From positions 256,866 to 320,865 of the forward strand of contig JAFGJD010000004.1 of the NCBI GenBank assembly GCA_016929235.1: a DNA stretch of 64,000 bases. The letters run 5' to 3'. A program made the translations under genes and the position numbers. Numbering within the stretch: the stretch's first letter is position 1; every line of letters starts with the position of its first letter. The notes beneath the pieces were generated by a model. It was not told the origin of the DNA and made no database searches. It saw only the letters and a list, made by a program, of their open reading frames with translations. Positions 68 through 52,217 of the stretch are shown here, piece by piece. The stretch is from Candidatus Babeliales bacterium. Its GTDB lineage: Bacteria > Babelota > Babeliae > Babelales > JABCYS01.

Positions 68-1039
68 TCAAGCTTTCTTTTTTGTCTTAATTTTGAGGAC
101 ATATTCAACATCTGTTTTGTTGAACGCAGGATTCTCTTTTTCTTGAGCATGCCAGCTTCTAAGTTCTTGTAAGATTTGAGGAAGAATAGTGATGAAGTGC
201 GATAGAAGAAACTCGGTGTGTGCAATTGCTCGGCCGTTATACTTGATGGCCGTTTGGAATGTATATGGATTCAGTTGGAATGTGCGTTTGGAAAAAAACG
301 GCTTTGTCTTCTTTTTTCTTTGTTCATGATATATGCCTTGAGGATCCATAATTTGAAGCATATCAGCGTGGGAGTACAGTGAATAAATTGTTTTGAAGAA
401 TGGATCGTTCACATAACATGCAGTTTCATTTTGTATTGGTGTACCAAGCATAATGAGCTCATCTATTACAAGCTTATTGTTGGGCAGCCTTACTTTAGCA
501 AGATTGAGCGCTACGTTGCCACCATGGCTGTGGGTAATAAGCCTAATTTTAGGGGCCTGTCCATGCTTAGTAGTATAGGCGTAGTGCTCACGTTGTAGTT
601 CCCGATAGAGATCTCTTGCTGCAAGTTCACGTGCCTGGAAACTCAGTGCTCCTGACCAACCAAATGCATAAAATGAATCGAGATCAAATTGTCGTGCATC
701 CTCGCGGGCTAAGATCTGAGCGATTGTTTTAAGATGATAGGTCTCTGGAAGATCTGATGCCTTCCATAGACCTATGTTAGGGCAGGTATGAAACTTCTTG
801 AAGACGGGATTATTAAAGGTTCCGTGGATCCACACTGTTATGATTGGCTCAGCGGCTTCTTCCCTTGTCTGATGTCGTGTCGCTCCTGATGAGATCATGA
901 GATAGCGTTTTTTTATAGGGCAACGCGATCCTACACAGCTGGCGCTTGCCAACAGCACGACAAGGGATGTGATGTAGCCAGCTACTCTACGAGACATACT
1001 TTTGAGCTTCCGTACTTTCATATACCTATACGGTAACAC
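68..1039 (-). CDS. exported alpha/beta-hydrolase, lipase/esterase-like (paralog of 48812..50158)
   Basis: 323-aa ORF. N-terminal hydrophobic segment ITSLVVLLASASC. Nucleophile-elbow-like THSHGG, with downstream Asp (SHADM) and His (AIAHTE). Core aligns by eye with 48812..50158 (FGWSG, SHGGN..LNL, MLG.P). Start is ambiguous: GTG 1039, ATG 1021 or ATG 997. Confidence 0.6.
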   Translation of the reverse strand: MLPYRYMKVRKLKSMSRRVAGYITSLVVLLASASCVGSRCPIKKRYLMISSGATRHQTREEAAEPIITVWIHGTFNNPVFKKFHTCPNIGLWKASDLPETYHLKTIAQILAREDARQFDLDSFYAFGWSGALSFQARELAARDLYRELQREHYAYTTKHGQAPKIRLITHSHGGNVALNLAKVRLPNNKLVIDELIMLGTPIQNETACYVNDPFFKTIYSLYSHADMLQIMDPQGIYHEQRKKKTKPFFSKRTFQLNPYTFQTAIKYNGRAIAHTEFLLSHFITILPQILQELRSWHAQEKENPAFNKTDVEYVLKIKTKKKA

Positions 1040-1098
1040 TATAAAGCACCTAGGAGAGACGTCAAAGATTGCTCATCTCAAGAAGGCTTTTGATTGTA

Positions 1099-1869
1099 CT
1101 AGTTGCATGATTCTAGATCAGTGATGAACGCTTTAACTTGATGAACGTATTCTGCGAATACGGCAGGATCAAAAATGTCTAGATCTCTATCGAGTACGAG
1201 AACAGGTATTTCTTTATACTCCCGAGGGGTGATACCGTTTTTACGAATAAGCCAATCGTCATGGTTAAATGATAATTTTTCTAAATACTCTAGTGGAACG
1301 CCTGCCTCCTCAGATCGATTACGCATCTTGAGGCGCGTGAAGCATATTTCGGGAGATGTTTTGAGGTAGATGAATCCATCTGGTTTTGGTGCATCGGCTA
1401 CATGTTTTTTAAAGAGCTCATTACAGAGTTCCCACTCAAGCGGATTGAGCTGATTGGTTTCCTTAAAGTTACGAGCAAAACAGAAATAACACGAGTAAAT
1501 TGAGCGTTCGAGCAGTGCGACAGGAGCATCTTGATCGGTAGCATGTTCTTGATTTTTAATATGGGTTAGAAAGGCATAGGTCTGAAAGGAATATGCCCAG
1601 CGATTAGAATCGGTATATAATTCTTGGAGCAGATTATATCCATTTACGTTTTGCCATGATTCAACGGGCTCAGGCAAGAACGAAACATCTTGAAGAGCTT
1701 CAGATAACATTCTTAAGAATGTTGTCTTTCCGGCACCAATGTTGCCTTCAACCATTATTTGTAATGGTTCCCGTATTACTATGGTAGGAGCTGCTTCTTC
1801 TTGTGTAGTAGGATACGTAGTACAATATAGTGAGAGTAGCGCTAACGAAAAAAGACGACATTTCTGCAT
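1099..1869 (-). CDS. deoxynucleoside kinase family protein with signal-like N-terminal extension
   Basis: P-loop VEGNIGAGKTTF and an ERSIYS motif typical of the dNK/dGK family. The ORF track starts at TTG 1875. ATG 1869 is preceded by AGGAG at 6-nt spacing, giving N-terminus MQKCRLFSLALLSLYCTT. Confidence 0.85.
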   Translation of the reverse strand: MQKCRLFSLALLSLYCTTYPTTQEEAAPTIVIREPLQIMVEGNIGAGKTTFLRMLSEALQDVSFLPEPVESWQNVNGYNLLQELYTDSNRWAYSFQTYAFLTHIKNQEHATDQDAPVALLERSIYSCYFCFARNFKETNQLNPLEWELCNELFKKHVADAPKPDGFIYLKTSPEICFTRLKMRNRSEEAGVPLEYLEKLSFNHDDWLIRKNGITPREYKEIPVLVLDRDLDIFDPAVFAEYVHQVKAFITDLESCN

Positions 1870-1981
1870 GAGCAACTCCTAAAATTGAGCATAAGAATGA
1901 CCAAAAACATGCTAAGTGTTTCAAACTTTTTTCAAAAAAGAAAGAAGGAATGTATAACTCATTGAGAGCTATAGGTAGGTC

Positions 1982-3025
1982 TTAATATAGCTTTTGTTGG
2001 CGTATGGAAGAAGCTGCTACATCGAGGTGCTGCATGGTAATCATTGCGGCATCCTCACGCGCAGCGTTCAATGCAGAACACCTTACCATCTCTTTGAGGT
2101 CTGCATTGTTAAATCCATGAGTATCATCGGCAAGTTGTTCGTAATCTAATGTTGGATCAACCCGATTATTGGGGATCTTATCTAAGTAATGTTTTAATAC
2201 TGCGACACGATTATTTTTTGATGGGAGCGGAACATGCGCAATAACATCAAATCGTCCAGCTCGTTTAAGTGCGGGATCCAAATCTTGAGGGTCATTAGTT
2301 GCTGCTAGTACAATAATACGTTCATCTTGATCAAACCCATCCATTTGATCAAGTAATGCGTTGAGTGTACGACGGCTTTCAGTGTCATGGCCTGCCATAG
2401 CAAATCGACTACCAATTGCATCGATATCATCAATAAAAATAATGACGCGACTTATAGGATTGCGTTGTAAAAAAAAGCGTGCCTGATCGAATAGTTGCCG
2501 AATACGTAGTGGCCCTGTGCCGACATAAATTTCAATAAACTCACTTGCAGAACAATGAATGAAGCCGCAATGAGTTTCTCCTGCAATGGCGCGTGCGAGT
2601 GATGTTTTCCCTGTGCCGGGAGGTCCAACTAGAAGGACACCGCGGGGTGGATTAATGCCAAATCGTTTGAATTTGTCAGTGTTTTGTATGAATGACAGTA
2701 GGTCAACTATTTCTTGTGGGACCGTTCCAGCAATATCATTAAAGGTATAATCAGGGGGATGTACGTCTATTTTATGTTTACTCGGTTCCAGAGGGTTTTG
2801 TGTATTTTGATAAGGATTGTTTGTGGGATAAGTAGATGGATCATTGGGGTCAAATTCACAATCTTCAACAAATCGGTCCCAATTATATTTGTTGAGATCA
2901 GTCATAAATGGGCGCATGCTATCACGAAAACCTGACGCAATTTTACCTAATATATTTTCCTTTTTTGGATACAGTATCGGTAGATACATGAACGTGATAA
3001 GACAGATGAGGATGATTCGTTTCAT
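1982..3025 (-). CDS. membrane-anchored or exported AAA+ ATPase (FtsH/Cdc48-like AAA module, no protease domain)
   Basis: Walker A GPPGTGKTS, Walker B IIFIDDIDAIG, and second region of homology ATNDPQDLDPALKRAGRFD. Single N-terminal hydrophobic helix IILICLITFMYLPILY. The ORF ends directly after the AAA lid, with no HEXXH. AAGGA Shine-Dalgarno sequence before the ATG. Confidence 0.8.
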   Translation of the reverse strand: MKRIILICLITFMYLPILYPKKENILGKIASGFRDSMRPFMTDLNKYNWDRFVEDCEFDPNDPSTYPTNNPYQNTQNPLEPSKHKIDVHPPDYTFNDIAGTVPQEIVDLLSFIQNTDKFKRFGINPPRGVLLVGPPGTGKTSLARAIAGETHCGFIHCSASEFIEIYVGTGPLRIRQLFDQARFFLQRNPISRVIIFIDDIDAIGSRFAMAGHDTESRRTLNALLDQMDGFDQDERIIVLAATNDPQDLDPALKRAGRFDVIAHVPLPSKNNRVAVLKHYLDKIPNNRVDPTLDYEQLADDTHGFNNADLKEMVRCSALNAAREDAAMITMQHLDVAASSIRQQKLY

Positions 3026-3129
3026 GTAATTCCTTTGTCTCGAAGCATCGTGACGTTTATTGCCATTATAACGTGAAGAACTATAATTTTAAGCATTGCA
3101 ATCATAGATCCCGTTTGCGAAAGATATTG

Positions 3130-3792
3130 ATGACACGTACGTACGCTATATTACTAAGTGGGCTTATGGCTATTGTTGGTCTTCCTGGATGTACGCACGT
3201 ATGGAAGAAAAAGCCTCGTTTGTCATTGTATACATTTACCGATGTTAAAGATGATATTACGATTGTCGTTAAACCGCTTAATAATCATGAGTCATTGGAG
3301 CGACTCAAAGTAAATCCACTGAAAAAAGGATACCAGCCAATTCAGATACGTATGCATAATTCAAGTGGTGATTACTACGTATTGCATCCGTGGCAGATCA
3401 GTGTTCCATTGATAGCACCGAAACAAGTTGCACGAGAATTTTATATCAATGTGCCAACAATGTTGGGATGGTTTCTTGTGGTTGGATGGGTTGGTGTAAT
3501 GTGGTTTAACCCATTATCATATCTAATTCCGGCGGGGATTGTTGGTATATTTGCATGGCCTGAAGCGAATAGAACGATGAAGAAGCGATTTCGTCATGAT
3601 GCAATAAGTCGTGGAGTTGAGAGCGTCATAATACCTCCAAACGGTTCTATTGATCGTCTTATCTTTGCGATGCAGGAGGATGCAACCAGACCATTCTCAG
3701 TATCCGTTGCTAATCAGCGTACCAACCGTTTGGTTGGATTTGATGTCCGTTTGCATGAGATGCTTGAGGATGGCAGGTCCCCTATCTCCTAA
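3130..3792 (+). CDS. hypothetical lipoprotein/membrane protein
   Basis: ORF is open from GTG 3073. ATG 3130 gives MTRTYAILLSGLMAIVGLPGC, a lipobox-like LPGC. Two internal hydrophobic helices. No recognisable family. Confidence 0.45.
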   Translation: MTRTYAILLSGLMAIVGLPGCTHVWKKKPRLSLYTFTDVKDDITIVVKPLNNHESLERLKVNPLKKGYQPIQIRMHNSSGDYYVLHPWQISVPLIAPKQVAREFYINVPTMLGWFLVVGWVGVMWFNPLSYLIPAGIVGIFAWPEANRTMKKRFRHDAISRGVESVIIPPNGSIDRLIFAMQEDATRPFSVSVANQRTNRLVGFDVRLHEMLEDGRSPIS

Positions 3793-5344
3793 GATTCCAG
3801 ACTGTCACGTCATCAAGGGAACGTAATGCGTTGATGTTCTCTCTCGAAAGAGTACTTCCAGATACATCAAGAACAAAAGGTTCTGAGCGTTCTTGGAAAA
3901 ATTCAACGGGGATTTCCTTGATTTTAGTCTGACGTATATACAATGTGCTAAGTCTAGGAAAAAGTTCTAATACCTCTATGGGCAGATCTTCAAGAGGGTT
4001 ATCGTTTAGTTTCAGTTCAGCAATATCATTAAGGTCGTAGGCGCGCACTCGTAATGCCTCGGCGAGTCCTTCTAAAGAGGTCAGGTGCAGTCCGCTCAGA
4101 TTAAGTCTTTTTTGGTCATTGGCATTGCGCTCAAGTGGAGGAATCTCGCCGCCAGCACGCAAATAACTATCAATGGTCCATATTGCAACCAAGGTTGCAC
4201 CGTCAGGATCAACGTAGGGTTCGTGTTCTGGAGAAATCTTCACATATTCTTCCGCGATGAGTGAGACAATTTCTTGTGGAAGCCGATCATAAAGGAAGGC
4301 GACACTTCTCGCATACGGACCATTGCGATTCTCTAGCATTTGTTGGGCTACGCGTTGAGCGGTTTGTAGTTTGAGCGTATTGATCTTGCGTTCTGGAGGT
4401 GGCGCAGCTGCTTCTTGCTCAATGATCTGCTCTTGGTGCCGCAATGTTTTGTATGCATTCTCAATAGTAGATGTAAGAGATCTGTTCTCTTTTAATTTGT
4501 CATGTAAGGGCTGTATCTCTTTTGCTATGAATTCATCATATTTTTGCGCATCAGATTCATCGAATCCTTGCACAGTTCGATTCTCCTGGAAGAGCCCATG
4601 AAAAGCCTCCATGAGTTGCCCAGGGGATTGCTCGAGTTCGTTGAATGTATCGAGACGACCATGATAAGCAAATACACTGCGAATAGCTATTCTGTTTTGA
4701 GTAAAAAAATCTAATTGTTTTTCAACAATAAAGTGTCGTATTTTTTCAGCTTTGCCGGTTAAATTATAGCTAATAAACCGTATAGTCGATTGAACATAGA
4801 TGGGCGCTGTTTCTGTTACAAAGAGTGTAAGTGAGCTGACAGCATTGCCTACCTGTTCCAAGAAGGAATTGACAAGTTCTTTTGCTCTTTGAATAGGAAG
4901 ATCAGAATGTGCAGCATATGCCTCCTGGGCGTTGGGCTGTCGTAATATATCACGTTCTTGATAAAGCGCATCGCACTCTGAACGTAGTTGATTTGTGTCA
5001 TTGACGAGCTCATCAATAGCTAGTTGACGCTGATTATATTGAGCGATGCTTCCGTTAAGCTCGTCCATTCTTGTGCGCTCTGTGTTTGTCAGCGTTGATC
5101 TTTTTGCTAGTTCTTCTGCTTCTCTGCGCCACCGTTCAAAGTCAACAAGTTTTTCTATTTGTTGTCGTTGTTGTTCTTCAATTTCTTTGTTTTTCTCTCT
5201 TAATCTTTGTTCTCTGTTGCGTATTTCTCTGGAGATTTCTTTATCTAGTCGTCGCTCTGATTTTGCTGCCTCTGTGGGGGGAGCATATAACGATACGTTC
5301 ATCAAAACCGGACATAACATCAGGAGATATCTTGAAATTTGCAT
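3782..5344 (-). CDS. secreted coiled-coil + leucine-rich-repeat protein
   Basis: Signal-like N-terminus, followed by an E/R/K/Q-rich coiled-coil region. C-terminal LRRs: LNLSGLHLTSLEGL..., LKLNDNPLEDLP, LYIRQTKIKEIP. Confidence 0.6.
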   Translation of the reverse strand: MQISRYLLMLCPVLMNVSLYAPPTEAAKSERRLDKEISREIRNREQRLREKNKEIEEQQRQQIEKLVDFERWRREAEELAKRSTLTNTERTRMDELNGSIAQYNQRQLAIDELVNDTNQLRSECDALYQERDILRQPNAQEAYAAHSDLPIQRAKELVNSFLEQVGNAVSSLTLFVTETAPIYVQSTIRFISYNLTGKAEKIRHFIVEKQLDFFTQNRIAIRSVFAYHGRLDTFNELEQSPGQLMEAFHGLFQENRTVQGFDESDAQKYDEFIAKEIQPLHDKLKENRSLTSTIENAYKTLRHQEQIIEQEAAAPPPERKINTLKLQTAQRVAQQMLENRNGPYARSVAFLYDRLPQEIVSLIAEEYVKISPEHEPYVDPDGATLVAIWTIDSYLRAGGEIPPLERNANDQKRLNLSGLHLTSLEGLAEALRVRAYDLNDIAELKLNDNPLEDLPIEVLELFPRLSTLYIRQTKIKEIPVEFFQERSEPFVLDVSGSTLSRENINALRSLDDVTVWNLRR

Positions 5345-5415
5345 TGTGTTCCTTTTCTCTTAAAATACGCAGCTTTCTAAAAAGAATACCTTTTCAAATG
5401 TTGGCGATTCAAGCA

Positions 5416-5889
5416 TTAGTTATTTTGTGGTTGCATTATTTTTACACACCCCAAATAATATCGTAACTTACGCATGAGTTCTTGTTGCGGTGTCTGTGGT
5501 GAGCGGGTTGCTTTGGTTGCTTCGTATTGTTCGGCTAGATCAGGACGATGTGATTTAACGACAAGCTCTAGCCCTGCGGCAATGATTGAACAAATTCCAC
5601 CAATAATTTTTGCAGGATCTCTTGTTGCAACAGCGACACCAAATCCAGTGAGCATGCGAGCAATAGTAGAACAAAAGATCATTGCCTCCTTGTTATTTGT
5701 CTTAGGTTGTTCGGCGGATGAATCAGATGAATTCGTTGTTTCTGATATTGGAATAATGCCTGTTTGCTGATATTCATGAAGCATCTGTAAAAATTGTTCT
5801 TCTGAGATGCTTGGAAGATCATGATTATCTTCAACGCATAGTGTGCTGCACCCCAGTATAAAAGTAGTGTAGCGAACAAACCGTTTCAT
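5416..5889 (-). CDS. small membrane protein with bilobed hydrophobic segment
   Basis: ATG 5889 (MKRFVRYTTFILGCS) lies 2 nt after the stop of the upstream OMP gene. Paired hydrophobic helices IFCSTIARMLTGFGVAVA / IIGGICSIIAAGLELVV are separated by TRDPAK. Confidence 0.4.
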   Translation of the reverse strand: MKRFVRYTTFILGCSTLCVEDNHDLPSISEEQFLQMLHEYQQTGIIPISETTNSSDSSAEQPKTNNKEAMIFCSTIARMLTGFGVAVATRDPAKIIGGICSIIAAGLELVVKSHRPDLAEQYEATKATRSPQTPQQELMRKLRYYLGCVKIMQPQNN

Positions 5890-5891
5890 AA

Positions 5892-7454
5892 TTACCATTC
5901 CGTTTGGGCGTTGAGAGAGAGTGTAAAATCTTTTCCGATTCCTGAACTTAGGGGCGTGATATCAGCGCTGAGCTGTAATTTCCATGGTGTGTCGTCTATA
6001 TCGAGCTTGCCGAAGAATGACCCTAATACTTTGAACTGAAAGGCTCCTGTTCGACGAGCAATAGTAAGATCATGTGTTTGGAGGAGCTCAGGCTCTCTGT
6101 CCCATGTAATGGTTTCAGCTTGATGTCCCCAAAAATCTACACCGAAATTGAAGCCAAGGTTTTCTGGTTCGTATGCGAATACGCTCGTTACTTTGAATAA
6201 TATTTTAGGTTGTACTCGCACGTGCACTCGATCGGGGAAGAACATATCTAATAAGCGTGCATTTAAGAATCGTAAGTTGCTTGCTGCGGTAGCGCTATCG
6301 GTGCTGCTAAAATCACGTTGTGCAAACGCGGCCAGGTTTGCAGGTTCAAGGATAAACCGAATTTCTGATGCTGGGAAAATGTGCTCAAATGCCAGGCGAT
6401 TGTACCATTTGGTGGTATCGCTGAGAGTAAAAGTAGGTTCAAGGAATATGCCGAGACCGGTATGCCCATGATCACCTAGTGGTTTTTCTAGAAGCATTTC
6501 TGAAAGCCTTTCAAGAACACGTCGTCCAATCAGTGTGATATTACGTGCCAGTTCATCCTTGAGCTCAACGGCCGTAAGATTAAGTTCAAAAATTTCACAC
6601 AGATCTATGGTTGGTCGATCAGGGCAACCGGCATCCAACTCAAAGGTCGATCCATATACGCCCTTTTGTACTGAGAATGCCGTTGGTATTGTTGCCTCAC
6701 CACCGAATAGCATATGCAAGCGTTTTGTTGTGAGGAGATTATACCCGATAGCAAGTCGTGTATCACCAATACCAAGACGGTCGCTAATGAGGTAATTTGC
6801 GGTGAACTGATCATCTGCCGCTTGACTGCTTGTTGGGAAGAATTTCAGAGCAGTTTGCTTTATTTCTTCTTGTTTTTCCAAGTCGAGTTGGTAATTGCGT
6901 TCTTGATAGTATACGGGCAGCTTGAGATCGATTGTCCATCCATATATGTTCTTGGCTAGCTCAGCAAGAAATCCAATACGTCGTTGCTCTACTGTTGCTT
7001 CACTAAAGAGACCAAAGACATGATTGACATCCATGTAAAACACATCGCTATCCTTGCCAGGGCTAGCGAGTAGAATATCACCACAAGGTTTTGTTCTAAC
7101 AGCAGTGAGAAATTCCTGCACCGCGGTTACGAGTCCTGGGTCCTGCAGGGCAAGTACCGAATCGATAGATTTGCTTTGCTTTGTAAAACAGCTGTGGGGC
7201 GTTTGGTTCCAGAATAGATGAATTTGCGCAAGCCAGTCATTATTATGCGGTGGATGTGCGGAGAGCGTAGGATAATCAAGAAGAGATCTATGGTTGAGTC
7301 CTGCAGTACGAAGAAATACTTCTTCTTCTAAGATTGCAACGCCGAAGCAATTATATAATGCAGGGACAAGATACGTAGAATAAGAACATTCTTGGGCTGT
7401 TGCCTGATATGATGTGAATACACAAAAGAGCAAAAGAACGATGCGACGCTTCAT
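5892..7454 (-). CDS. putative outer-membrane beta-barrel protein
   Basis: Signal peptide MKRRIVLLLFCVFTSYQATAQE. Alternating amphipathic strands in the C-terminal half. C-terminal ...LSLNAQTEW ends in an aromatic residue, as in OMP sorting signals. Confidence 0.5.
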   Translation of the reverse strand: MKRRIVLLLFCVFTSYQATAQECSYSTYLVPALYNCFGVAILEEEVFLRTAGLNHRSLLDYPTLSAHPPHNNDWLAQIHLFWNQTPHSCFTKQSKSIDSVLALQDPGLVTAVQEFLTAVRTKPCGDILLASPGKDSDVFYMDVNHVFGLFSEATVEQRRIGFLAELAKNIYGWTIDLKLPVYYQERNYQLDLEKQEEIKQTALKFFPTSSQAADDQFTANYLISDRLGIGDTRLAIGYNLLTTKRLHMLFGGEATIPTAFSVQKGVYGSTFELDAGCPDRPTIDLCEIFELNLTAVELKDELARNITLIGRRVLERLSEMLLEKPLGDHGHTGLGIFLEPTFTLSDTTKWYNRLAFEHIFPASEIRFILEPANLAAFAQRDFSSTDSATAASNLRFLNARLLDMFFPDRVHVRVQPKILFKVTSVFAYEPENLGFNFGVDFWGHQAETITWDREPELLQTHDLTIARRTGAFQFKVLGSFFGKLDIDDTPWKLQLSADITPLSSGIGKDFTLSLNAQTEW

Positions 7455-34589: not shown

Positions 34590-36911
34590 ATGAAACTGTC
34601 AATCGCGTGGATCTTTGACCACATCAATGCTCGATGGCACGATATTCCCCTTGATCAGTTGGTTGACCGATTTAACAAAACAACTGCTGAGATCGAAGAT
34701 GTTGAGCATTGCACGATTGATCTGGTGCCCTTTACCTGCGGCCGTGTGATCGCGATTACTGATACTAGTGTAATACTGCAGAGCGATGAATGGTCTAAAG
34801 AGATCACTCTGCCTGGTCGTTCTGATGCATCTGTTGGGTCATATTTTCTTGTGTGTAAGGATCGGTATGCAACCGTTCGTGATTTTGGATGTGGTAAAGA
34901 TGGACTACTTCCAGCACTAACTATGACTGATGAAGATGCTGGTGGGGTATGGAAAAGCTCTATAGAGACAGAAGATTATATTATAGAAGTTGATAATAAA
35001 TCGATTACTAACCGTCCAGATATGTGGAGTCATAGAGGATTTGCTCGCGAGATTGCAGCACTCTTTGATCTTCCACTTAAACCACTTTCAGAATTTACAG
35101 CACGACACGAAGTGCGGAAATATGATGCATGTGCGGCAGCCACAGATGCGTGTCCTATTTCTATTGAAGTGAAGGCGCCAGATGCGTGTCCATACTTTTC
35201 TGGTTTGTACGTAAAGACTATCTCATCACAACCATCCGCGTTGTGGATGGCACATCGCCTTGCGCGAACTGACAATCGTCCGATTAATGGGATTGTTGAT
35301 GTTACTAACTATGTCATGCTCGACCTGGGACAACCAATGCACGCATTTGATGTGAACAAGATTGGTTCAACAAAGATCGTGCCTCGCATGGCACGGCCTG
35401 GTGAAAAACTTGAGCTTCTTGACGATACACAGCTTGAACTTACTGATCAGGATCTTGTGATCTCGAACGGTGATACCGCACTTGCTCTTGCAGGGGTCAT
35501 GGGTGGCAAACGATCTGGTATCGATACATCAACGACATCTGTATTTTTAGAGGCAGCGTGTTTTGATGCGGGTGTGATCCGTCGTTCGGCAGTACGATGC
35601 AAAACGCGTACCGAAGCATCGGCACGTTTTGAAAAAAGTCTTGATCCAGCACAAACCGTTCCTGCGATACAGAGGTTCATTAAACTGTATGAAGAGATTG
35701 GTGGAACACTGAACCTAACTACTTCGATCAAGGCAGTGGGACGCCTGCCTCAGCCAACGATCATTACGATCGAGCATGCAACCATAGAGACACTACTTGG
35801 CTGTTCGGTTCCATCACAGACGGTTGTGAAAATTCTTGAAAAACTGGCATTCAAAGTTGAGCAGTCACGCAATCCTGGAAGCGTTCTATATACCATCACG
35901 GTACCAACGTTCCGTGCGACAAAAGATGTTACGATTAAGGAAGACATTGTTGAAGAAGTAGGTCGCTTTTACGGGTACACCAACATTGAGCCCGTACTTC
36001 CATCCATGCAGATGCAACCATCTGATATGTCACGCTTGTACCAGATACGTGGCATCAAGAAACATATGGCATATGCCAACCGCATGCATGAGTTGCAAAG
36101 CTACGCGTTGTACGACGAAGAATTTTTGAAAGAACTTTGTTGGGAGCCGGCCGTCTATATTTCGTTGATCAATCCAGTTGCTGATACTAACAAGCGGTTA
36201 GCAACATCATTGATCCCCAATGTCTTAAAGGCGGTACAACAGAATGCGCTCAAGGAAGATGAGCTTAGATTCTTCGAACTTAATCCCATCTGGCCACACG
36301 GTACACAGGAGCCGATTGTAGAGAATCTTTCGCTTGCTTCTGTTGTATACAAGCGCAGAGGAGAAGTTGATTTTTACGAAGAGAAGGCTGCACTGCAATC
36401 GCTCTTTTCCTTACTTGGCATGCATGTCACTTGGAAGAAAGTTGAGTCACCAGCTCCATGGTACAGCAGCACACAAACGGCACAGCTTCTACATGGTAGG
36501 CATGTTGTTGGGTATGCAGGGATGATGGATGAGTCATTCTTGAACCGCGTATGCGAAGGTAAAGGATTTATTGCGGAGATTGATGGTGATTATATAGCCT
36601 CATATAGACATGAACCTGTGCGTATGCATCCGCTATCTAAGTACCAAGATGTGACACTTGATATTAGTATGTTGGTGCCGCTTCAGGTGACGGTTGATAA
36701 GCTGCAGGCCGTGATTCATGGTGTTGATGGTCGTATTGTACGCGTGCAGTTGATAGACTTTTTTGAAAAGAAAGAGTGGAAGGATAAACGATCGCTTACG
36801 TTCAGATATGTTGTGCAAGATCATCACGCAACATTGGATAAGGGTGCTATTGATACGATTGTATCCTCTGTGGAACACGCGGTTGCCAAACAGGGAGTTG
36901 AAGTTCGATGA
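34590..36911 (+). CDS. pheT: phenylalanine--tRNA ligase beta subunit
   Basis: B3/4 domain (ITNRPDMWSHRGFAREIA), B5 domain, and a C-terminal FDX-ACB-like domain (SLTFRYV). TGA stop sits in an ATGA overlap with lspA. Confidence 0.9.
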   Translation: MKLSIAWIFDHINARWHDIPLDQLVDRFNKTTAEIEDVEHCTIDLVPFTCGRVIAITDTSVILQSDEWSKEITLPGRSDASVGSYFLVCKDRYATVRDFGCGKDGLLPALTMTDEDAGGVWKSSIETEDYIIEVDNKSITNRPDMWSHRGFAREIAALFDLPLKPLSEFTARHEVRKYDACAAATDACPISIEVKAPDACPYFSGLYVKTISSQPSALWMAHRLARTDNRPINGIVDVTNYVMLDLGQPMHAFDVNKIGSTKIVPRMARPGEKLELLDDTQLELTDQDLVISNGDTALALAGVMGGKRSGIDTSTTSVFLEAACFDAGVIRRSAVRCKTRTEASARFEKSLDPAQTVPAIQRFIKLYEEIGGTLNLTTSIKAVGRLPQPTIITIEHATIETLLGCSVPSQTVVKILEKLAFKVEQSRNPGSVLYTITVPTFRATKDVTIKEDIVEEVGRFYGYTNIEPVLPSMQMQPSDMSRLYQIRGIKKHMAYANRMHELQSYALYDEEFLKELCWEPAVYISLINPVADTNKRLATSLIPNVLKAVQQNALKEDELRFFELNPIWPHGTQEPIVENLSLASVVYKRRGEVDFYEEKAALQSLFSLLGMHVTWKKVESPAPWYSSTQTAQLLHGRHVVGYAGMMDESFLNRVCEGKGFIAEIDGDYIASYRHEPVRMHPLSKYQDVTLDISMLVPLQVTVDKLQAVIHGVDGRIVRVQLIDFFEKKEWKDKRSLTFRYVVQDHHATLDKGAIDTIVSSVEHAVAKQGVEVR

Positions 36912-37384
36912 AGCGAGCTCGAGAGTTACAGAACTATGCATGGATCGGTGGTGCGATTTTGCTTTTAGATCGTATCACTAAGTGGATTGTTTTGCATTAT
37001 TTAGAAAATGAATATATATGCACATCATTTTTATCATTTGATCTTGTCGTTAATCGTGGTATCTCGTGGGGGATGTTCCATTCGACCAATCAAGCAATGT
37101 TCATGTTGGTGACGACATTGGTGATGGGAGTGATTGTTTTTTTGATCTCACATGCATATACGCGCTGGAGTGATAGTTTTGCGATTTATGGTGAAATAAT
37201 GGTTTTGGCGGGAGCGCTATCCAACCTATTTGATAGATTTATGTATCGTGGCGTTATTGATTTTATTGAAGTAACGACCGGCAAGTATGTTTGGCCATCA
37301 TTCAATGTTGCCGACATCGCGATATTTTTTGGTGTTATGCTCATGCTTATAAGTGTGTATTCTGATCGTGAAACAAAAAAATAA
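36908..37384 (+). CDS. lspA: lipoprotein signal peptidase II
   Basis: Four TM helices. NRGISWGMF and FNVADIAIFFG motifs. Confidence 0.9.
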   Translation: MKRARELQNYAWIGGAILLLDRITKWIVLHYLENEYICTSFLSFDLVVNRGISWGMFHSTNQAMFMLVTTLVMGVIVFLISHAYTRWSDSFAIYGEIMVLAGALSNLFDRFMYRGVIDFIEVTTGKYVWPSFNVADIAIFFGVMLMLISVYSDRETKK

Positions 37385-37891: not shown

Positions 37892-38905
37892 ATGAAATAT
37901 CTTCCTACAGCACGTTTGACGTTTCTCATGAGTACATTGTTACTTCTTTCTGCATGTAACTGGTGGGGAAGTAAGGATGCAGCAACGGGAGTTAGCTCCT
38001 CTGTTGCAAATGAAACTATCCTTCTTTCGTTGGATGGTAAGCCTGTTATTACGGTAAAAGAGTTTGAAACCTTTTATAATCAAACACTTGAACAACAGCC
38101 GCAACTTGCACAATTTGCTGCATTTATGCCTGACCTCAAAGAAAATCTTTACAATACATTTGCAAGTTACAAGTTATTAGAATACTGGATTCGTGATAAC
38201 AAGATTAATCAAAAGCCAGAGTACGTATCTGATCGTGATATGTTAATTGAAAATATTGAGCGAAGTCTTGCGTTAAAATATTTCCAGCTTCAGTTTCCTG
38301 TAGATGTTCGTGATGCAGATGTAAAAAAATATTACGAAGATAACAAAGAGACGATCTATCTTATGGCACCTTCTGGCATAGCCGCATTGGGTGCATCATT
38401 TGGTTCAGAAAAAGACGCACAAGCCTTTTTTTCAAAAGCAAAAAAAGCTGACGATTTTATTGCACTTGCAAAAGATGACGATGTAACCGTCCGCAACTTT
38501 GGTCGTGTCAACGAACAAAGTAATAACTTGGACGAAGGGCTCAAGCAGAATATTTTGGGCGTGAGTTCATTCCCATCAGTACAATTATTTGTCGTTGGTG
38601 ATACTCATTGGGTTGTCCAAGTAAAATCAAAAGATGAAGCGAAATATTATTCATTTGAACAAGCTGAAGATGATGCTCGTACTCGTATTATGGCAGAACG
38701 TTCTAATGATATGCTTATGAAGGAAATTGAAAACCTTAAATCAAAATACAATGTTATTGAAAACAAAACGTATTTTGAAACACAGGCTCAAGAACAGCAA
38801 CCAATGCCTGATATGAGTTCTATCTTGTCAGACGAAATAGATCCTAGTTTATTGAGTCATGATGATAAATCATTTTCTGATGAGCTTCCTGTACAAAAAG
38901 CGTAA
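37892..38905 (+). CDS. periplasmic chaperone-like lipoprotein (SurA/PpiD-like, no obvious parvulin domain)
   Basis: Lipobox LLLLSAC. Helical N-terminal region resembling SurA_N or trigger-factor-like chaperones. The family call is weak. Confidence 0.4.
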   Translation: MKYLPTARLTFLMSTLLLLSACNWWGSKDAATGVSSSVANETILLSLDGKPVITVKEFETFYNQTLEQQPQLAQFAAFMPDLKENLYNTFASYKLLEYWIRDNKINQKPEYVSDRDMLIENIERSLALKYFQLQFPVDVRDADVKKYYEDNKETIYLMAPSGIAALGASFGSEKDAQAFFSKAKKADDFIALAKDDDVTVRNFGRVNEQSNNLDEGLKQNILGVSSFPSVQLFVVGDTHWVVQVKSKDEAKYYSFEQAEDDARTRIMAERSNDMLMKEIENLKSKYNVIENKTYFETQAQEQQPMPDMSSILSDEIDPSLLSHDDKSFSDELPVQKA

Positions 38906-38914
38906 GGTCAAGGA

Positions 38915-39760
38915 ATGAACAACCGAATACTTCTTCTGCTTAGTATTGGGTTTTTGGCGCATGCTGAACAAAAGATCCTTATCGATCGGATCGAGGCGGT
39001 TGTTCATGGGACTGAGGCAACTGAGCTTGTAACGAAGGCGGATATTGAACGTCCAAGTTTAAGTGGAGCTCCTCGTTCTAAGGACGAGGTTTTACTCGAA
39101 CGGCTTATGTTTCAGGATGCACTTAAATATCGTGTCATGGTCGATGAAAAATCGATTGACGAGTACATCGAAAAAATAAAAAAACAAAATAACGCAACAC
39201 AAGATGACATCAAACAAATGTTTCATGATGCCGGGTATACCTACGAGGAAGGGCGTAGGCATCTTGGCATCATGCAAGCAAGTGCTCAAATCTCGGATTA
39301 CAAAGTGCGCTCAAAAATCTTGGTAACTGAGCAGCAAGTCAAAGAGTATTATGACGAACATCCAAAGTATTATCCTGCTGTATATCGCTTTGAGCGGGCA
39401 ATGATTCCTGCAAAAGAGGGTGATGAAAAAGAGATACAAAAGAAGCTCGACAAATATGCAAAAACGCACAAAGGCATTGTCCTCGTATGGCGTACGCTGC
39501 CAGATGTTGCCGAGTCGGAGCTTGATGAAAATTTACATTTTTTGAAAAAACTCAAACAGGACGAGTTATCAAAGCCTCGTGCATTAAAAGATGGTGGGTT
39601 TGATGTGTTTCGCTTGCGTTGGAAAAAGGAATCAGAGATTATACCGTTCGATGAACGGTATCGAGAAATCTCAGAAATTCTACGTAAACCTCAATATGAA
39701 GAATTACTCTCGGCTTATAAAAAAGAGCTATGGGACAACGCTTCGATCATATATCTCTAG
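38915..39760 (+). CDS. SurA N-terminal-domain-like periplasmic protein
   Basis: Signal peptide, then IDRIEAVVHGTEATELVTKADIE, resembling the SurA N-terminal motif (DRIVAVVN...I..S.L). Confidence 0.4.
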   Translation: MNNRILLLLSIGFLAHAEQKILIDRIEAVVHGTEATELVTKADIERPSLSGAPRSKDEVLLERLMFQDALKYRVMVDEKSIDEYIEKIKKQNNATQDDIKQMFHDAGYTYEEGRRHLGIMQASAQISDYKVRSKILVTEQQVKEYYDEHPKYYPAVYRFERAMIPAKEGDEKEIQKKLDKYAKTHKGIVLVWRTLPDVAESELDENLHFLKKLKQDELSKPRALKDGGFDVFRLRWKKESEIIPFDERYREISEILRKPQYEELLSAYKKELWDNASIIYL

Positions 39761-51028: not shown

Positions 51029-51385
51029 ATGAATTCATTCTTGCTTGTAGGGGTTGGTGGCTTATTCGGAGCACTTACTCGCTATACATTCTGGGAGTAT
51101 GTTCCCATGAATATTTTGGCGAAAGTGCTTGTTATTAATATGGTTGGCTGTATGTTGACGAGCTTCATGTTTGCGTTTTATGGACATGATAACCCTGTCA
51201 CACTTTTTGCATGTGTTGGTTTTTTTGCCTCATTTACAGTTATTTGGCGTTTTATTCATGAGGTTGTTGAGCTGTGGGTGTACCAGTCTGCAGCAGCGGC
51301 ATTACTCTATATGGTACTCATGAATCTTGGTTGCATGCTTGCGGTGATGCTGGGACGGGCCCTGGCAGTGAGGGCAATGCTCTGA
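51029..51385 (+). CDS. crcB: fluoride ion channel CrcB/FluC
   Basis: GVGGLFGALTRY motif and 4 TM helices. ATG 51029 is preceded by AGGAGG at 5-nt spacing (the ORF track starts at GTG 51005). Confidence 0.85.
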   Translation: MNSFLLVGVGGLFGALTRYTFWEYVPMNILAKVLVINMVGCMLTSFMFAFYGHDNPVTLFACVGFFASFTVIWRFIHEVVELWVYQSAAAALLYMVLMNLGCMLAVMLGRALAVRAML

Positions 51386-52217
51386 TTGCATGGAGAACGC
51401 ATTCGAAATGGTGTGGCTCGGAAAACAGAACACTGTTCATACCGACTGAACGTGCGGCAAGAACATTGTCGGCCTTGTCATCAACAAAGATTGTTTGTTC
51501 TGCTTTAAGATCAAACGTGTCTAAAAAGAGAAGGTACATGCGCAGATCCGGCTTATGAAGATAGGTATATTCAGGCATTGGCATAAAAAAGCCATCGAAA
51601 TCGTCAAAGTAATCTGGGTACAATTCTTGAAATTCTTTGAATGTTGTTGAGCCAATGTTGGAGAGAAGATAAATTTCAAACCCGCGCTTTTTAAGTTCTT
51701 TGATTAGTTCAAATGTGCGTTTGATCGGAATTTGACAGTTGGCAATGCGATTGCCTTTATCTTGGAACTCTTTAAGTCCGGGATGAATTGTTCCGAGATC
51801 ATTGAGCACTTTTTCACCAACTTTACCGCTTGTTAGCGCACATATAATTCTAAAGGTGACTTTTGGGTTTAAAATGATGTTCCAGAGCCGTGGAGTCGTA
51901 AAAAAAAGTAAGAGAGCATTGGCAAGCATAGTAGGATAATCTGGTTTAAAGAGAACATGATGGAGATCAAACGCAAAAACTGTTTTATGTGGCCGTGCGG
52001 GACGAAGCGCAGTGAGATTTGATGCTTGATCTCGTTTGTACCAGGAGTATGCGGTATCAGTTCCGAATGTGGTAAGGCCAGTCATAATGGTTATTGGATT
52101 TGTTCCACATAGATATAGCATTGCGCCTAGAGTATTATATGCGTGTGTGCTGGTGTGAATGAAAAACGTCATTGCGGTGAGAATAACGATACGCTTCATA
52201 CTCCTCTCCTCGAGCAA
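51318..52217 (-). CDS. exported HAD-superfamily-like protein with atypical motif I
   Basis: Signal MKRIVILTAMTFFIHTSTHA. FDLHHVLF appears in place of DxDxT/V. LLSNIGS (motif II) and FVDDKADNV (motif IV) are present. The 3' end overlaps crcB by 68 nt. Confidence 0.5.
   Translation of the reverse strand: MLEERSMKRIVILTAMTFFIHTSTHAYNTLGAMLYLCGTNPITIMTGLTTFGTDTAYSWYKRDQASNLTALRPARPHKTVFAFDLHHVLFKPDYPTMLANALLLFFTTPRLWNIILNPKVTFRIICALTSGKVGEKVLNDLGTIHPGLKEFQDKGNRIANCQIPIKRTFELIKELKKRGFEIYLLSNIGSTTFKEFQELYPDYFDDFDGFFMPMPEYTYLHKPDLRMYLLFLDTFDLKAEQTIFVDDKADNVLAARSVGMNSVLFSEPHHFECVLHAIRALPSLPGPVPASPQACNQDS

What the first reader, a model, noticed from the sequence alone, without database searches (positions are those of the whole stretch)
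1099..1875. Deoxynucleoside kinase with a Sec-signal-like N-terminal extension
The dNK core (VEGNIGAGKTT, ERS) is preceded by about 40 residues that begin MQKCRLFSLALLSLYCTTYPTTQEE. This has a basic n-region, a hydrophobic core and a polar c-region.

The long form is favoured. ATG 1869 has an AGGAG 6 nt upstream, whereas the internal Met just before the P-loop has no Shine-Dalgarno sequence.

A normally cytosolic, ATP-dependent salvage enzyme with an export signal is odd. It could be exported into a host compartment for nucleotide parasitism, or be membrane-tethered. Its neighbours (lipase-like, AAA, LRR) also carry signal-like N-termini.
Basis: partly seen in the sequence, partly recalled or inferred. 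Interest (0 to 1): 0.6.

Follow-up and report, generated by a model that had tools for sequence, protein, structure and literature searches.

The report
Parasite kinase carrying an export signal
An intracellular parasitic bacterium (Babeliales, phylum Dependentiae) has a second copy of a DNA-precursor salvage enzyme that, unlike almost all its relatives, begins with a conserved export signal, which suggests it works outside the bacterial cytoplasm on the host's deoxynucleosides.

Summary
ORF 1099-1869(-) encodes a 256-aa deoxynucleoside kinase (Pfam dNK, aa 38-249, E 6.5e-54). It is preceded by MQKCR-LFSLALLSLYC-TTYPTTQEE and a short linker.

The long form is real:
- Two orthologues (80% and 65% identity) keep the ATG, the Shine-Dalgarno sequence and the hydrophobic pattern.
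- In the 65% orthologue the internal Met is Ile.
- A start at M39 would cut strand beta1 and give a shorter N-terminus than any of about 268 homologues.

The N-terminus scores like this genome's periplasmic proteins and above all 17 cytoplasmic controls. SignalP could not be run.

The host is a Babeliales bacterium, an ATP-stealing parasite of protists. Its genome also has an ordinary dNK without a signal (P0110). The exported-type copy keeps every catalytic residue but has changed both base-specificity residues (R104H, D133C in dCK numbering).

About nine other dNK lineages carry signal peptides, at least one of them named Babeliales. The neighbouring AAA ATPase belongs to a family in which 52 of 61 members carry one.

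Best reading: a Sec-exported dNK that uses host ATP on host deoxynucleosides. Export and final location are inferred, not shown. This is a new variant of a known enzyme family, of moderate interest.

The parts
1099..1869 (-). Full-length CDS (256 aa plus stop) of the signal-bearing deoxynucleoside kinase. Identical to NCBI 'deoxynucleoside kinase [Candidatus Babeliales bacterium]' (P0001).
1876..1880 (-). Shine-Dalgarno AGGAG, 6 nt upstream of the ATG. The orthologues have GGGAG and GAGGAA at the same place.
1867..1869 (-). Start codon ATG (M1), invariant in all three orthologues.
1855..1869 (-). Signal n-region MQKCR (aa 1-5, two positive charges).
1822..1854 (-). Signal h-region LFSLALLSLYC (aa 6-16). 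It ends in a Cys that aligns in all three orthologues.
1801..1821 (-). Polar c-region TTYPTTQ (aa 17-23). The cleavage site is uncertain here; it is canonical (ATA|L) in orthologue P0003.
1759..1800 (-). Variable acidic/Pro/Ala linker EEAAPTIVIREPLQ (aa 24-37). AF2 confidence is low through about aa 25 and rises to high by about aa 31. Orthologues differ here by in-frame indels.
1753..1755 (-). Internal ATG (M39), rejected as a start. It has no Shine-Dalgarno sequence, is Ile in P0003, and would truncate strand beta1.
1123..1758 (-). dNK catalytic domain (aa 38-249). AF2 pLDDT is above 90. Foldseek top hits are human dCK and Drosophila dNK (TM up to 0.92).
1723..1746 (-). P-loop GNIGAGKT (aa 42-49).
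1561..1563 (-). His103, the equivalent of dCK Arg104 (base-specificity residue, changed).
1501..1509 (-). ERS motif (aa 121-123), intact.
1489..1491 (-). Cys127, the equivalent of dCK Asp133 (base-specificity residue, changed).
1306..1335 (-). LID segment RLKMRNRSEE (aa 179-188). All three Arg and both Glu are intact.
1911..1944 (-). Conserved upstream block CTTTCTTTTTTGAAAAAAGTTTGAAACACTTAGC. It is 100% identical in L001, mostly conserved in L002, and unique in the window. Possibly a promoter or operator; function unknown.
1982..3025 (-). Upstream neighbour: a single-AAA FtsH-like ATPase without a protease domain and with a hydrophobic N-terminus. Synteny is kept in L001.
68..1021 (-). Downstream neighbour: an alpha/beta-hydrolase (weak PGAP1-like hit) with a signal- or lipoprotein-like N-terminus. 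Synteny is kept in L001.

Best explanation
The gene encodes a catalytically intact deoxynucleoside kinase. Translation starts at ATG 1869, and the first 20 or so residues form a Sec-type signal sequence followed by a flexible linker.

The genome is a Babeliales (Dependentiae) bacterium. This phylum parasitises protists, makes no nucleotides and imports host ATP. The gene is the second dNK of the genome. The other copy (P0110) has the ordinary short N-terminus and sits among housekeeping genes.

Most likely the signal takes this copy across the inner membrane. The enzyme would then work outside the bacterial cytoplasm: in the periplasm, at the cell surface, or in the host cytoplasm after release by type II secretion or vesicles. 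In any of these places host ATP is available. There it would phosphorylate host deoxynucleosides. Because both purine/dC-specifying residues are replaced (R104H, D133C), its substrates probably include thymidine and other pyrimidines. The products would be trapped as dNMPs and would feed the deoxynucleotide pool that the parasite taps through its nucleotide transporters.

**Shown:** the long form, conservation of the signal-like segment, intact catalytic motifs, changed specificity residues, the paralogue, and recurrence in other lineages.

**Inferred:** Sec export, cleavage, final location, substrate range, and benefit to the parasite.
For: **Start site and translation of the extension.**
- ATG, MQK and the Shine-Dalgarno sequence are conserved in L001 and L002.
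- The internal Met is Ile in P0003.
- dN/dS is 0.44 in the extension against 0.03 in the core. The second codon position is the best conserved in all three pairs.

**The extension is not part of the fold.**
- pLDDT is 50-55 for aa 1-20, with no secondary structure there. It rises to 72 for aa 21-30 and is above 90 from about aa 31.

**Signal-like by in-genome calibration**.
- The hydrophobic peak is 2.44 at residue 6, with an 18-residue uncharged run and two K/R before it.
- This lies within the range of the window's SurA-like, PPIase, PBP and Ank/LRR proteins (2.46-3.6).
- It lies above all 17 cytoplasmic enzymes (maximum 2.02).
- Charge distribution (K3 and R5 before the run, E24 and E25 after it) predicts N-in/C-out.

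**Rare in the family.** Of the 120 nearest homologues, only the two orthologues and P0039 have such an N-terminus.

**Recurrent in other lineages.**
- About nine other lineages of bacterial-size dNKs carry signal peptides. Several have canonical AXA-type sites directly before beta1: P0125, P0139, P0223, P0417, P0457, P0395, P0420.
- One lineage is named Candidatus Babeliales (P0270).
- P0139 lies among Ank/WD40 genes and next to a signal-bearing methyltransferase.
- P0199 is a signal + adenylate kinase + dNK fusion.

**Paralogue.** P0110, with a short N-terminus, has the same longest-contig length (321,671 bp) as P0001 and lies next to ATP synthase and RecD2 genes.

**Enzyme intact, specificity changed.**
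- The equivalents of E53, Q97, ERS, R188, R192, R194, E196 and E197 are all kept. R104 is His and D133 is Cys.
- 13 of 15 signal-type dNKs lack the R/D pair, against 36 of 184 others.
- Mutating R104 and D133 in dCK admits thymidine and dU (PMC3851323; PDB 3hp1).

**ATP-dependent enzymes with signals are systematic in this phylum.** 52 of 61 short homologues of the AAA neighbour are signal-like.

**Literature.**
- 44% of C. destructans CDS carry signal peptides (PMC6561590).
- TM6 bacteria lack nucleotide synthesis and have type II secretion components with two gspD copies and NTT paralogues (PMC4776705).
- NTT-family carriers can move dNTPs (PMC6995639).
- Host dNTP and nucleoside pools are small, 4-40 uM (PMC5113988).
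Against: - No dedicated predictor (SignalP, DeepTMHMM, LipoP) could be run, and there are no experimental data.
- The window protein lacks a clean -3/-1 SPase I site. The best candidates are CTT|Y and PTT|Q.
- The hydrophobic peak is at the low end of the positive controls.
- The P0001 clade has only three known members.
- There is no evidence on how a periplasmic protein would cross the outer membrane. No transporter for dNMPs or dNTPs has been identified in this genome.
- The exported-type dNKs are not depleted in Cys, which says little either way.
- The link between signal and changed specificity residues is not corrected for phylogeny.
- Phobius-type counts of 44% signal peptides in the phylum may include false positives.
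Confidence: 0.6

Rival explanations
1. Tethered rather than released. The N-terminus is a lipoprotein signal (lipidated at the conserved Cys16) or an uncleaved signal anchor. The kinase would hang on a roughly 20-residue flexible linker on the periplasmic face of the inner membrane or on the outer membrane or cell surface. This would resemble the microsporidian hexokinases held in the parasite's coat.
For: - A Cys at the end of the h-region aligns in all three orthologues (C16/C15/C15).
- A Thr/Pro/Glu/Ala-rich linker follows it, modelled with low confidence through about aa 25. This is typical of lipoprotein tethers.
- Lgt and LspA are encoded in the window.
- The window protein lacks a good SPase I site.
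- P0175 (LLSAC) and P0199 (IFAC) have lipobox-like motifs.
Against: - The residue before the Cys is Tyr or Leu, not Gly/Ala/Ser as the lipobox requires. The window's own lipoprotein-like proteins have G/A/S there (LPGC, ILGC, LSAC, VLGC, VMAC).
- Cys is common inside h-regions in this genome.
- The h-region (11-14 residues) is short for a stable transmembrane anchor.
- Most other signal-type dNKs have AXA-type sites directly before beta1 and no linker.
Confidence: 0.2
2. Cytoplasmic-face anchor. The hydrophobic N-terminus inserts N-out/C-in, or binds the membrane peripherally. The kinase would stay in the bacterial cytoplasm next to nucleoside permeases and phosphorylate deoxynucleosides as they enter (vectorial trapping).
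For: - dNKs need ATP and are classically cytoplasmic.
- Dependentiae are proposed to take up nucleosides and phosphorylate them inside the cell (PMC4776705).
- The changed specificity residues could simply mark a second salvage isozyme.
Against: - The charge distribution (K3, R5 before the h-region; E24, E25 after it; similar in P0002) predicts N-in/C-out by the positive-inside rule.
- The h-region is too short for a transmembrane helix.
- Several other signal-type dNKs have textbook cleavable signals such as SVQA|K, VHA|R and SYA|T.
- The gene lies in a run of seven genes that all have signal-like N-termini.
Confidence: 0.1
3. Wrong start or meaningless extension. The real protein starts at M39, or the hydrophobic N-terminus is a neutral accident with no targeting role.
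For: - The N-termini of most dNKs are short.
- The extension evolves much faster than the core.
- Only three clade members are known.
Against: - ATG, Shine-Dalgarno sequence and reading frame are conserved across 65-80% orthologues, with in-frame indels only.
- M39 is Ile in P0003, and no other in-frame start lies near the P-loop there.
- A start at M39 would leave 3 residues before the P-loop Gly. The minimum among about 268 homologues is 5. It would also cut beta1.
- The second-codon-position conservation pattern indicates selection for hydrophobicity.
- Chance expectation is 0.18%.
- Signals have arisen independently in about nine further dNK lineages.
Confidence: 0.04

Closest known systems
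dCK/dGK/Dm-dNK family of deoxynucleoside kinases (Pfam PF01712; human dCK 2a2z/2no9, Drosophila dNK 1j90)
   Same: - The sequence matches at E 1e-46 to 1e-44.
- The predicted fold gives TM 0.78-0.92.
- The P-loop, the Glu53 and Gln97 equivalents, the ERS motif and the Arg-rich LID are all conserved.
   Different: - It carries a 37-aa N-terminal signal-like extension that nearly all bacterial relatives lack.
- The base-specificity pair Arg104/Asp133 is His/Cys. This is neither the dCK/dGK type (R/D) nor the Dm-dNK type (M/A).
- It has no C-terminal tail.
- The N-terminal extensions of eukaryotic dGK and TK2 are, from my own knowledge, mitochondrial presequences. Those are Arg-rich amphipathic segments, not an n/h/c signal.
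Secreted hexokinases of Microsporidia (Nematocida, Trachipleistophora, Antonospora)
   Same: - Both are ATP-dependent, normally cytosolic kinases of an ATP-stealing intracellular parasite that has gained an N-terminal signal peptide.
- In both cases paralogues with and without the signal coexist.
- The proposed role is to push host metabolism toward precursors the parasite imports (PMC6460350; PMC5113988).
   Different: - The microsporidian case is eukaryotic ER-type secretion, not bacterial Sec plus an outer membrane.
- The enzyme family and substrate differ.
- Secretion of the hexokinases has experimental support. Here there is none.
Predicted secretome of Dependentiae (Chromulinavorax destructans: 44% of CDS with signal peptides, including ankyrin proteins, nucleases, HAD hydrolases and M41 peptidases)
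   Same: - It belongs to the same phylum and shows the same pattern of signals on effector-like and enzyme-like proteins (PMC6561590).
- The window repeats that pattern: Ank, LRR, HAD and FtsH-like AAA proteins all carry signals.
   Different: - No kinase or dNK is mentioned in that paper's main text (0 occurrences of 'kinase').
- A full-text search for 'deoxynucleoside kinase' plus 'signal peptide' found no report of a bacterial signal-bearing dNK.
Viral thymidine/deoxynucleoside kinases (herpesvirus, poxvirus, giant viruses). Functional analogy from my own knowledge, not tested here.
   Same: A parasite-encoded dNK acting in the host cytoplasm to enlarge the deoxynucleotide supply for the parasite's DNA replication.
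   Different: - Viral enzymes are made in the host cytoplasm and need no export signal.
- Herpes TKs are only distant relatives of this family.
- Here the products would still have to cross the bacterial envelope.

Membership tests
Deoxynucleoside kinase (PF01712, dCK/dGK/Dm-dNK type) | Profile match above the curated threshold | tested here: met
   183.2 bits against a cut-off of 27; aa 38-249 cover profile positions 1-202 of 203.
Deoxynucleoside kinase (PF01712, dCK/dGK/Dm-dNK type) | P-loop GxxxxGK[ST], ERS motif, and Arg-rich LID RxxxRxRxEE | tested here: met
   GNIGAGKT (aa 42-49), ERS (aa 121-123) and RLKMRNRSEE (aa 179-188) all align to the dCK residues.
Deoxynucleoside kinase (PF01712, dCK/dGK/Dm-dNK type) | dNK fold | tested here: met
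   AF2 mean pLDDT 90.8. Foldseek top 50 hits are all dCK or Dm-dNK, E about 1e-20, TM up to 0.92.
Deoxynucleoside kinase (PF01712, dCK/dGK/Dm-dNK type) | Kinase activity and substrate range | not testable with these tools
   Only inferred. The specificity pair R104/D133 is H/C.
Sec type I (SPase I) signal peptide | Positively charged n-region within the first residues | tested here: met
   K3 and R5 in P0001 and P0002; only K3 in P0003, which has Y at position 5.
Sec type I (SPase I) signal peptide | Uncharged hydrophobic h-region of about 7-15 residues near the N-terminus | tested here: met
   LFSLALLSLYC. The 9-residue Kyte-Doolittle peak is 2.44 at residue 6, with an 18-residue uncharged run. 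This is above all 17 cytoplasmic controls and within the exported set.
Sec type I (SPase I) signal peptide | c-region with small residues at -3/-1 (AXA rule) | tested here: inconclusive
   - Window protein: only weak candidates (CTT|Y, PTT|Q).
- P0003: canonical ATA|L.
- P0002: HTA|K.
Sec type I (SPase I) signal peptide | Positive call by a trained predictor, or demonstrated export or cleavage | not testable with these tools
   SignalP, DeepTMHMM and Phobius are not available. There are no proteomics data.
Bacterial lipoprotein signal (SPase II) | Lipobox [LVI][ASTVI][GAS]C at the end of the h-region | tested here: not met
   The Cys is conserved, but the preceding residue is Y (window) or L (P0002, P0003). 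The window's own lipoprotein-like proteins have G/A/S there.
Tat signal | Twin-arginine motif S/T-R-R-x-F-L-K in the n-region | tested here: not met
   The n-region is MQKCR, MQKQR or MQKWY, with no RR.
Type IV prepilin-like signal | Short leader ending in G followed by F/M-x-x-x-E | tested here: not met
   No G|FxxxE in aa 1-30.
Parasite-secreted metabolic kinase (microsporidian hexokinase type; a functional class, not a homologous family) | A signal-bearing paralogue exists alongside a signal-less paralogue in an ATP-importing intracellular parasite | tested here: met
   - P0001 carries the signal.
- P0110 does not, and shows the same longest-contig length (321,671 bp).
- Phylum biology comes from PMC4776705.
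Parasite-secreted metabolic kinase (microsporidian hexokinase type; a functional class, not a homologous family) | Protein demonstrated outside the parasite cell | not testable with these tools
   No localisation data.

The most novel reading that the evidence does not exclude
Dependentiae deliver ATP-dependent nucleotide-salvage kinases into the host cytoplasm through Sec followed by type II secretion or vesicles. The set would include dNKs with altered base specificity, an adenylate kinase-dNK fusion and dNK-VOC fusions. These enzymes would reprogramme the host's small deoxynucleotide pool, and the bacterium would then import the products through diversified NTT carriers. This would be a bacterial counterpart of viral thymidine kinases and microsporidian secreted hexokinase, and a previously undescribed class of metabolic effector.
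Probability: 0.3. Interest if true: 0.75.

Novelty: new variant of a known kind. Interest (0 to 1): 0.55.

Why it matters
Dependentiae are widespread, almost uncultured parasites of protists. How they obtain DNA precursors is unknown beyond the statement that they take up nucleosides and nucleotides.

A conserved export signal on an intact dNK recurs in about ten lineages. It is paired with a normal cytosolic copy and with changed base-specificity residues. Together these features point to deoxynucleotide acquisition beginning outside the bacterial cytoplasm.

If confirmed, three things would follow:
- A metabolic kinase would be added to the list of bacterial effectors.
- The periplasm or host-facing space of ATP-stealing bacteria would be shown to be a compartment where ATP-dependent enzymes work. 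The signal-bearing AAA ATPase family supports the same idea.
- The field would gain a simple, clonable test case (signal-reporter fusions, enzyme kinetics) for a phylum with few genetic tools.

If export is disproved, the gene is simply a second dNK isozyme with an unusual N-terminus.

Tried and rejected
**Searches that led nowhere**
- Close-relative scans of GTDB genomes and JGI metagenomes found nothing.
It returned mostly Bacteroidota and Chloroflexota dNKs. Its four best loci (L010-L013) have no signal, so it gave no taxonomic survey.
- The alignment-based metagenome scan gave one distant, signal-less dNK on a 27.5% GC contig (L090).
- The P0001 clade therefore stays at three members.

**Tests that were uninformative**
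- The sigma-70 and terminator scan found no promoter-like site in front of the gene.
- The conserved upstream block is not a repeated motif in the window (3 loose matches against 2.8 expected).
- Cys content and pI of signal-type and ordinary dNKs do not differ (4.5 vs 4.4 Cys). This gives no clue to an oxidising or reducing destination.

**Readings considered and rejected**
- Tat signal, prepilin signal and canonical lipobox: motifs absent.
- Mitochondrial-type presequence, as in eukaryotic dGK/TK2: the extension is hydrophobic and followed by acidic residues, not Arg-rich and amphipathic.
- Start at M39.
- The extension as part of the fold: low AF2 confidence and no secondary structure.

**Phylogeny**
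- Nearest-neighbour analysis shows the signal-type dNKs are not one clade. I did not build a proper tree, so I cannot separate multiple gains from fast divergence.

**Literature**
- Full-text searches found no report of a signal-bearing bacterial dNK.
Full report
**1. The observation**

On the minus strand an ORF runs from 1875 (TTG) or 1869 (ATG) to the stop at 1099. AGGAG (1876-1880) lies 6 nt before the ATG.

The 256-aa product begins MQKCRLFSLALLSLYCTTYPTTQEEAAPTIVIREPLQIM. It continues with VEGNIGAGKTT and later LLERS. Pfam dNK (PF01712) matches aa 38-249 at E 6.5e-54.

**2. Which start is used**

The exact protein is in NCBI as 'deoxynucleoside kinase [Candidatus Babeliales bacterium]' on a 321,671-bp contig (P0001). 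Two orthologues exist on short metagenomic contigs: P0002 (80% identity, L001) and P0003 (65%, L002).

All three begin ATG-CAA/G-AAA (MQK). Each has a purine-rich Shine-Dalgarno sequence 6-8 nt upstream (AGGAG, GGGAG, GAGGAA). Each also has a conserved block further upstream, CTTTCTTTTTT..AAAA.TTTGAAACAC.TAGC, at window 1911-1944. L001 keeps the gene order AAA - dNK - lipase-like.

Evidence against the short form:
- In P0003 the internal Met is Ile (PLQIIIEGN), so the short form cannot be made there.
- In the window a start at M39 would leave 3 residues before the first P-loop Gly. The minimum among about 268 homologues is 5.
- A start at M39 would also remove part of strand beta1, which the AlphaFold model places at aa 36-42.

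Evidence that the extension is translated:
- The extension differs between orthologues only by in-frame indels.
- Its dN/dS is 0.44, against 0.03 for the core.
- In all three pairwise comparisons the second codon position is the best conserved (0.83 against 0.62 and 0.59 for window vs L001). This is the pattern expected when hydrophobicity is under selection.

The long form is therefore real (confidence about 0.95).

**3. Is it signal-like?**

SignalP was not available, so I calibrated against the window itself.

| Set | 9-residue Kyte-Doolittle peak in the N-terminus |
|---|---|
| 17 proteins with clearly cytoplasmic functions (RpoD, DnaG, MnmG, Tgt, MurB, PheT, MreB, KsgA, UppS, GpsA, MurG and others) | at most 2.02 |
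| Bona fide envelope proteins (two SurA/PPIase-like chaperones, PBP1a, a PASTA protein) and effector-like Ank/LRR proteins | 2.46-3.6 |
| The dNK | 2.44, at residue 6 |

The dNK also has an 18-residue uncharged run and two basic residues before it. Acidic residues follow (E24, E25), which predicts N-in/C-out. Random 40-mers of the protein's own composition meet these criteria 0.18% of the time.

AlphaFold gives pLDDT 50-55 and no secondary structure for aa 1-20, 72 for aa 21-30, and above 90 from about aa 31. The extension is not part of the fold.

Two weak points:
- The window protein has no clean -3/-1 site. P0003 has a canonical ATA|L.
- A Cys at the end of the h-region aligns in all three orthologues, but the residue before it is Tyr or Leu, so the canonical lipobox is not met.

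Tat and prepilin motifs are absent.

**4. What the enzyme is**

The nearest solved structures are human dCK (E 1.4e-46) and Drosophila dNK (2e-44). Foldseek on the model returns only these, with TM up to 0.92.

Mapped to dCK numbering, the equivalents of Glu53, Gln97, Glu127-Arg128-Ser129, Arg188, Arg192, Arg194, Glu196 and Glu197 are all present. The two residues that set base preference are changed in all three orthologues: Arg104 to His103 and Asp133 to Cys127. In dCK, changing these two residues extends activity to thymidine and deoxyuridine (PMC3851323; PDB 3hp1 appears).

The same genome's other dNK (P0110) keeps Arg and Asp.

**5. Genomic and organismal context**

The window is from a Babeliales bacterium, phylum Dependentiae (TM6). 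According to the literature:
- These are intracellular parasites of protists with no nucleotide or nucleoside biosynthesis.
- They have ATP/ADP translocase paralogues.
- They have type II secretion components with two gspD copies (PMC4776705).
- In Chromulinavorax destructans 44% of CDS carry predicted signal peptides (PMC6561590).

The window fits this picture. About half of its 56 ORFs have hydrophobic N-termini. These include ankyrin and LRR proteins, and seven consecutive genes at 68-7454 that include the dNK. Lgt and LspA are encoded in the window.

P0110, the signal-less dNK, is not in the window. It lies next to ATP synthase and RecD2 genes and shows the same longest-contig length as P0001.

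**6. The signal on an ATP-dependent enzyme is not unique here**

The upstream neighbour (1982-3025) is an FtsH-like AAA module without a protease domain. Among its 61 short (313-420 aa) homologues, several of them named TM6 or Dependentiae, 52 have signal-like N-termini. Many have textbook sites such as ...SSALA|QD and ...GAVLA|AE.

Among dNKs, the 50%-identity representative library and a profile search reveal about nine further lineages of bacterial-size dNKs with signal peptides:
- P0125 (...ASVQA|KP)
- P0139, P0417, P0457 and P0395 (...VHA|R, ...LAA|R, ...LSA|R, ...VNA|R; the first three show the same 1.87-Mb longest contig)
- P0039 and P0141
- P0160, P0270 and P0420 (P0270 is named Candidatus Babeliales)
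- P0175 (LLSAC)
- P0223 (...SYA|T)
- P0253
- P0268

Further details:
- P0199 is a signal + adenylate kinase + dNK fusion, next to NUDIX and SET-domain genes.
- P0417 and P0395 add a C-terminal glyoxalase/VOC domain.
- P0139 sits among Ank and WD40 genes, beside a signal-bearing SAM methyltransferase.
- By nearest-neighbour analysis the signal-type dNKs are not one clade.
- 13 of 15 signal-type dNKs lack the Arg104/Asp133 pair, against 36 of 184 others (Fisher p = 2e-7, not corrected for phylogeny).

**7. Most likely mechanism**

Shown:
- a full-length, conserved, signal-like N-terminus on an intact dNK;
- a signal-less paralogue;
- changed specificity residues;
- recurrence in relatives;
- co-location with other signal-bearing genes.

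Inferred:
- SecYEG translocation, with cleavage by SPase I or retention as a tether.
- Activity outside the cytoplasm. An ATP-importing parasite necessarily has host ATP at its surface and in its periplasm. Export of AAA ATPases, a methyltransferase and an adenylate kinase-dNK fusion argues that the destination contains cytosolic cofactors, which fits the host cytoplasm best.
- Phosphorylation of host deoxynucleosides, probably including pyrimidines and thymidine. Host pools are only 4-40 uM (PMC5113988).
- Uptake of the resulting nucleotides. NTT-family carriers can carry dNTPs in other systems (PMC6995639).

My confidence in an extracytoplasmic dNK is about 0.6. My confidence in action inside the host cytoplasm specifically is about 0.3.

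**8. Rivals**

| Rival | Confidence | Main points |
|---|---|---|
| Lipid- or anchor-tethered enzyme | 0.2 | For: conserved Cys, linker, Lgt and LspA present. Against: lipobox not met. |
| Cytoplasmic-face anchor coupling to permeases | 0.1 | Against: charge topology, short h-region, cleavable-looking signals in relatives. |
| Wrong start or meaningless extension | 0.04 | Against: everything in section 2. |

**9. Comparison with what is known**

By sequence, motifs and fold the protein is a member of the dCK/dGK/Dm-dNK family. Its signal and its His/Cys specificity pair are atypical.

Functionally, the closest precedent is the microsporidian hexokinases that acquired signal peptides and are found outside the parasite (PMC6460350; PMC5113988). 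Viral thymidine kinases are a looser analogy (my own knowledge).

The general abundance of signal peptides in Dependentiae is published. A signal-bearing dNK is not, as far as full-text searches show.

**10. Verdict**

The 'oddity' is part of a phylum-wide pattern of exporting cofactor-dependent enzymes.

It is a new variant of a known enzyme family. It is of moderate interest, readily testable, and its main open question is where the protein ends up.

Noticed in passing
window 1982-3025 (-): A single-AAA FtsH-like ATPase without a protease domain and with a hydrophobic N-terminus. 52 of 61 short homologues (several named TM6 or Dependentiae) carry signal-like N-termini, many with AXA sites. 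This looks like a large family of exported AAA+ ATPases. It may correspond to the 'secreted M41 peptidases' listed for C. destructans.
   Followed up: partly
window 1911-1944 (-): A conserved block upstream of the dNK, CTTTCTTTTTTGAAAAAAGTTTGAAACACTTAGC. It contains the near-palindrome CTTTTTTGAAAAAAG. It is identical in L001 and largely kept in L002, is unique in the window, and is not a sigma-70 consensus match. Possibly a promoter or operator of unknown type.
   Followed up: partly
window 51318-52199 (-) and 52220-52888 (-): Two adjacent HAD-family hydrolases, one with a signal peptide (MKRIVILTAMTFFIHTSTHA|YN) and one without. This is a second example of a signal-bearing and signal-less enzyme pair.
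   Followed up: no
L009 6001-7431 (P0199/P0274): A 476-aa fusion of a signal-like N-terminus, an adenylate kinase (ADK + lid) and a dNK. It lies directly after a NUDIX gene and near SET-domain and peptidase C11 genes.
   Followed up: partly
P0417 (398 aa) and P0395 (420 aa); P0417 shows the same 1.87-Mb longest contig as L006: A fusion of signal peptide, dNK and a C-terminal glyoxalase/VOC (PF00903) domain. The genome appears to hold three signal-type dNK paralogues: P0139, P0417 and P0457 all show the same 1,865,056-bp longest contig.
   Followed up: no
L005/L006 5762-6607 (-): A SAM-dependent methyltransferase with a signal peptide (MKKIFLSVLLLNSINFVYSA|TN), convergent with the signal-type dNK P0139. 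Ank and WD40 repeat genes flank it.
   Followed up: no
window 68-7454: Seven consecutive genes all have hydrophobic N-termini: lipase-like, dNK, AAA, an unknown lipoprotein-like protein, a coiled-coil + LRR protein, an unknown protein, and an unknown 520-aa protein. Six are on the minus strand; the lipoprotein-like gene at 3130-3792 is on the plus strand. This is an exported-protein gene cluster.
   Followed up: partly
window 13535-14329 (-) and 36908-37384 (+): Lgt and signal peptidase II (LspA) are encoded in the window, so the lipoprotein pathway is present. Two SurA/PPIase-like chaperones follow nearby at 37892-39760.
   Followed up: no
window 68-1021 (-) and L001 997-1926: The lipase-like neighbour keeps a Cys after LLASAS / LLIAAN in both orthologues (..SASC / ..AANC). 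Lipoboxes in this lineage may be looser than the textbook pattern.
   Followed up: no
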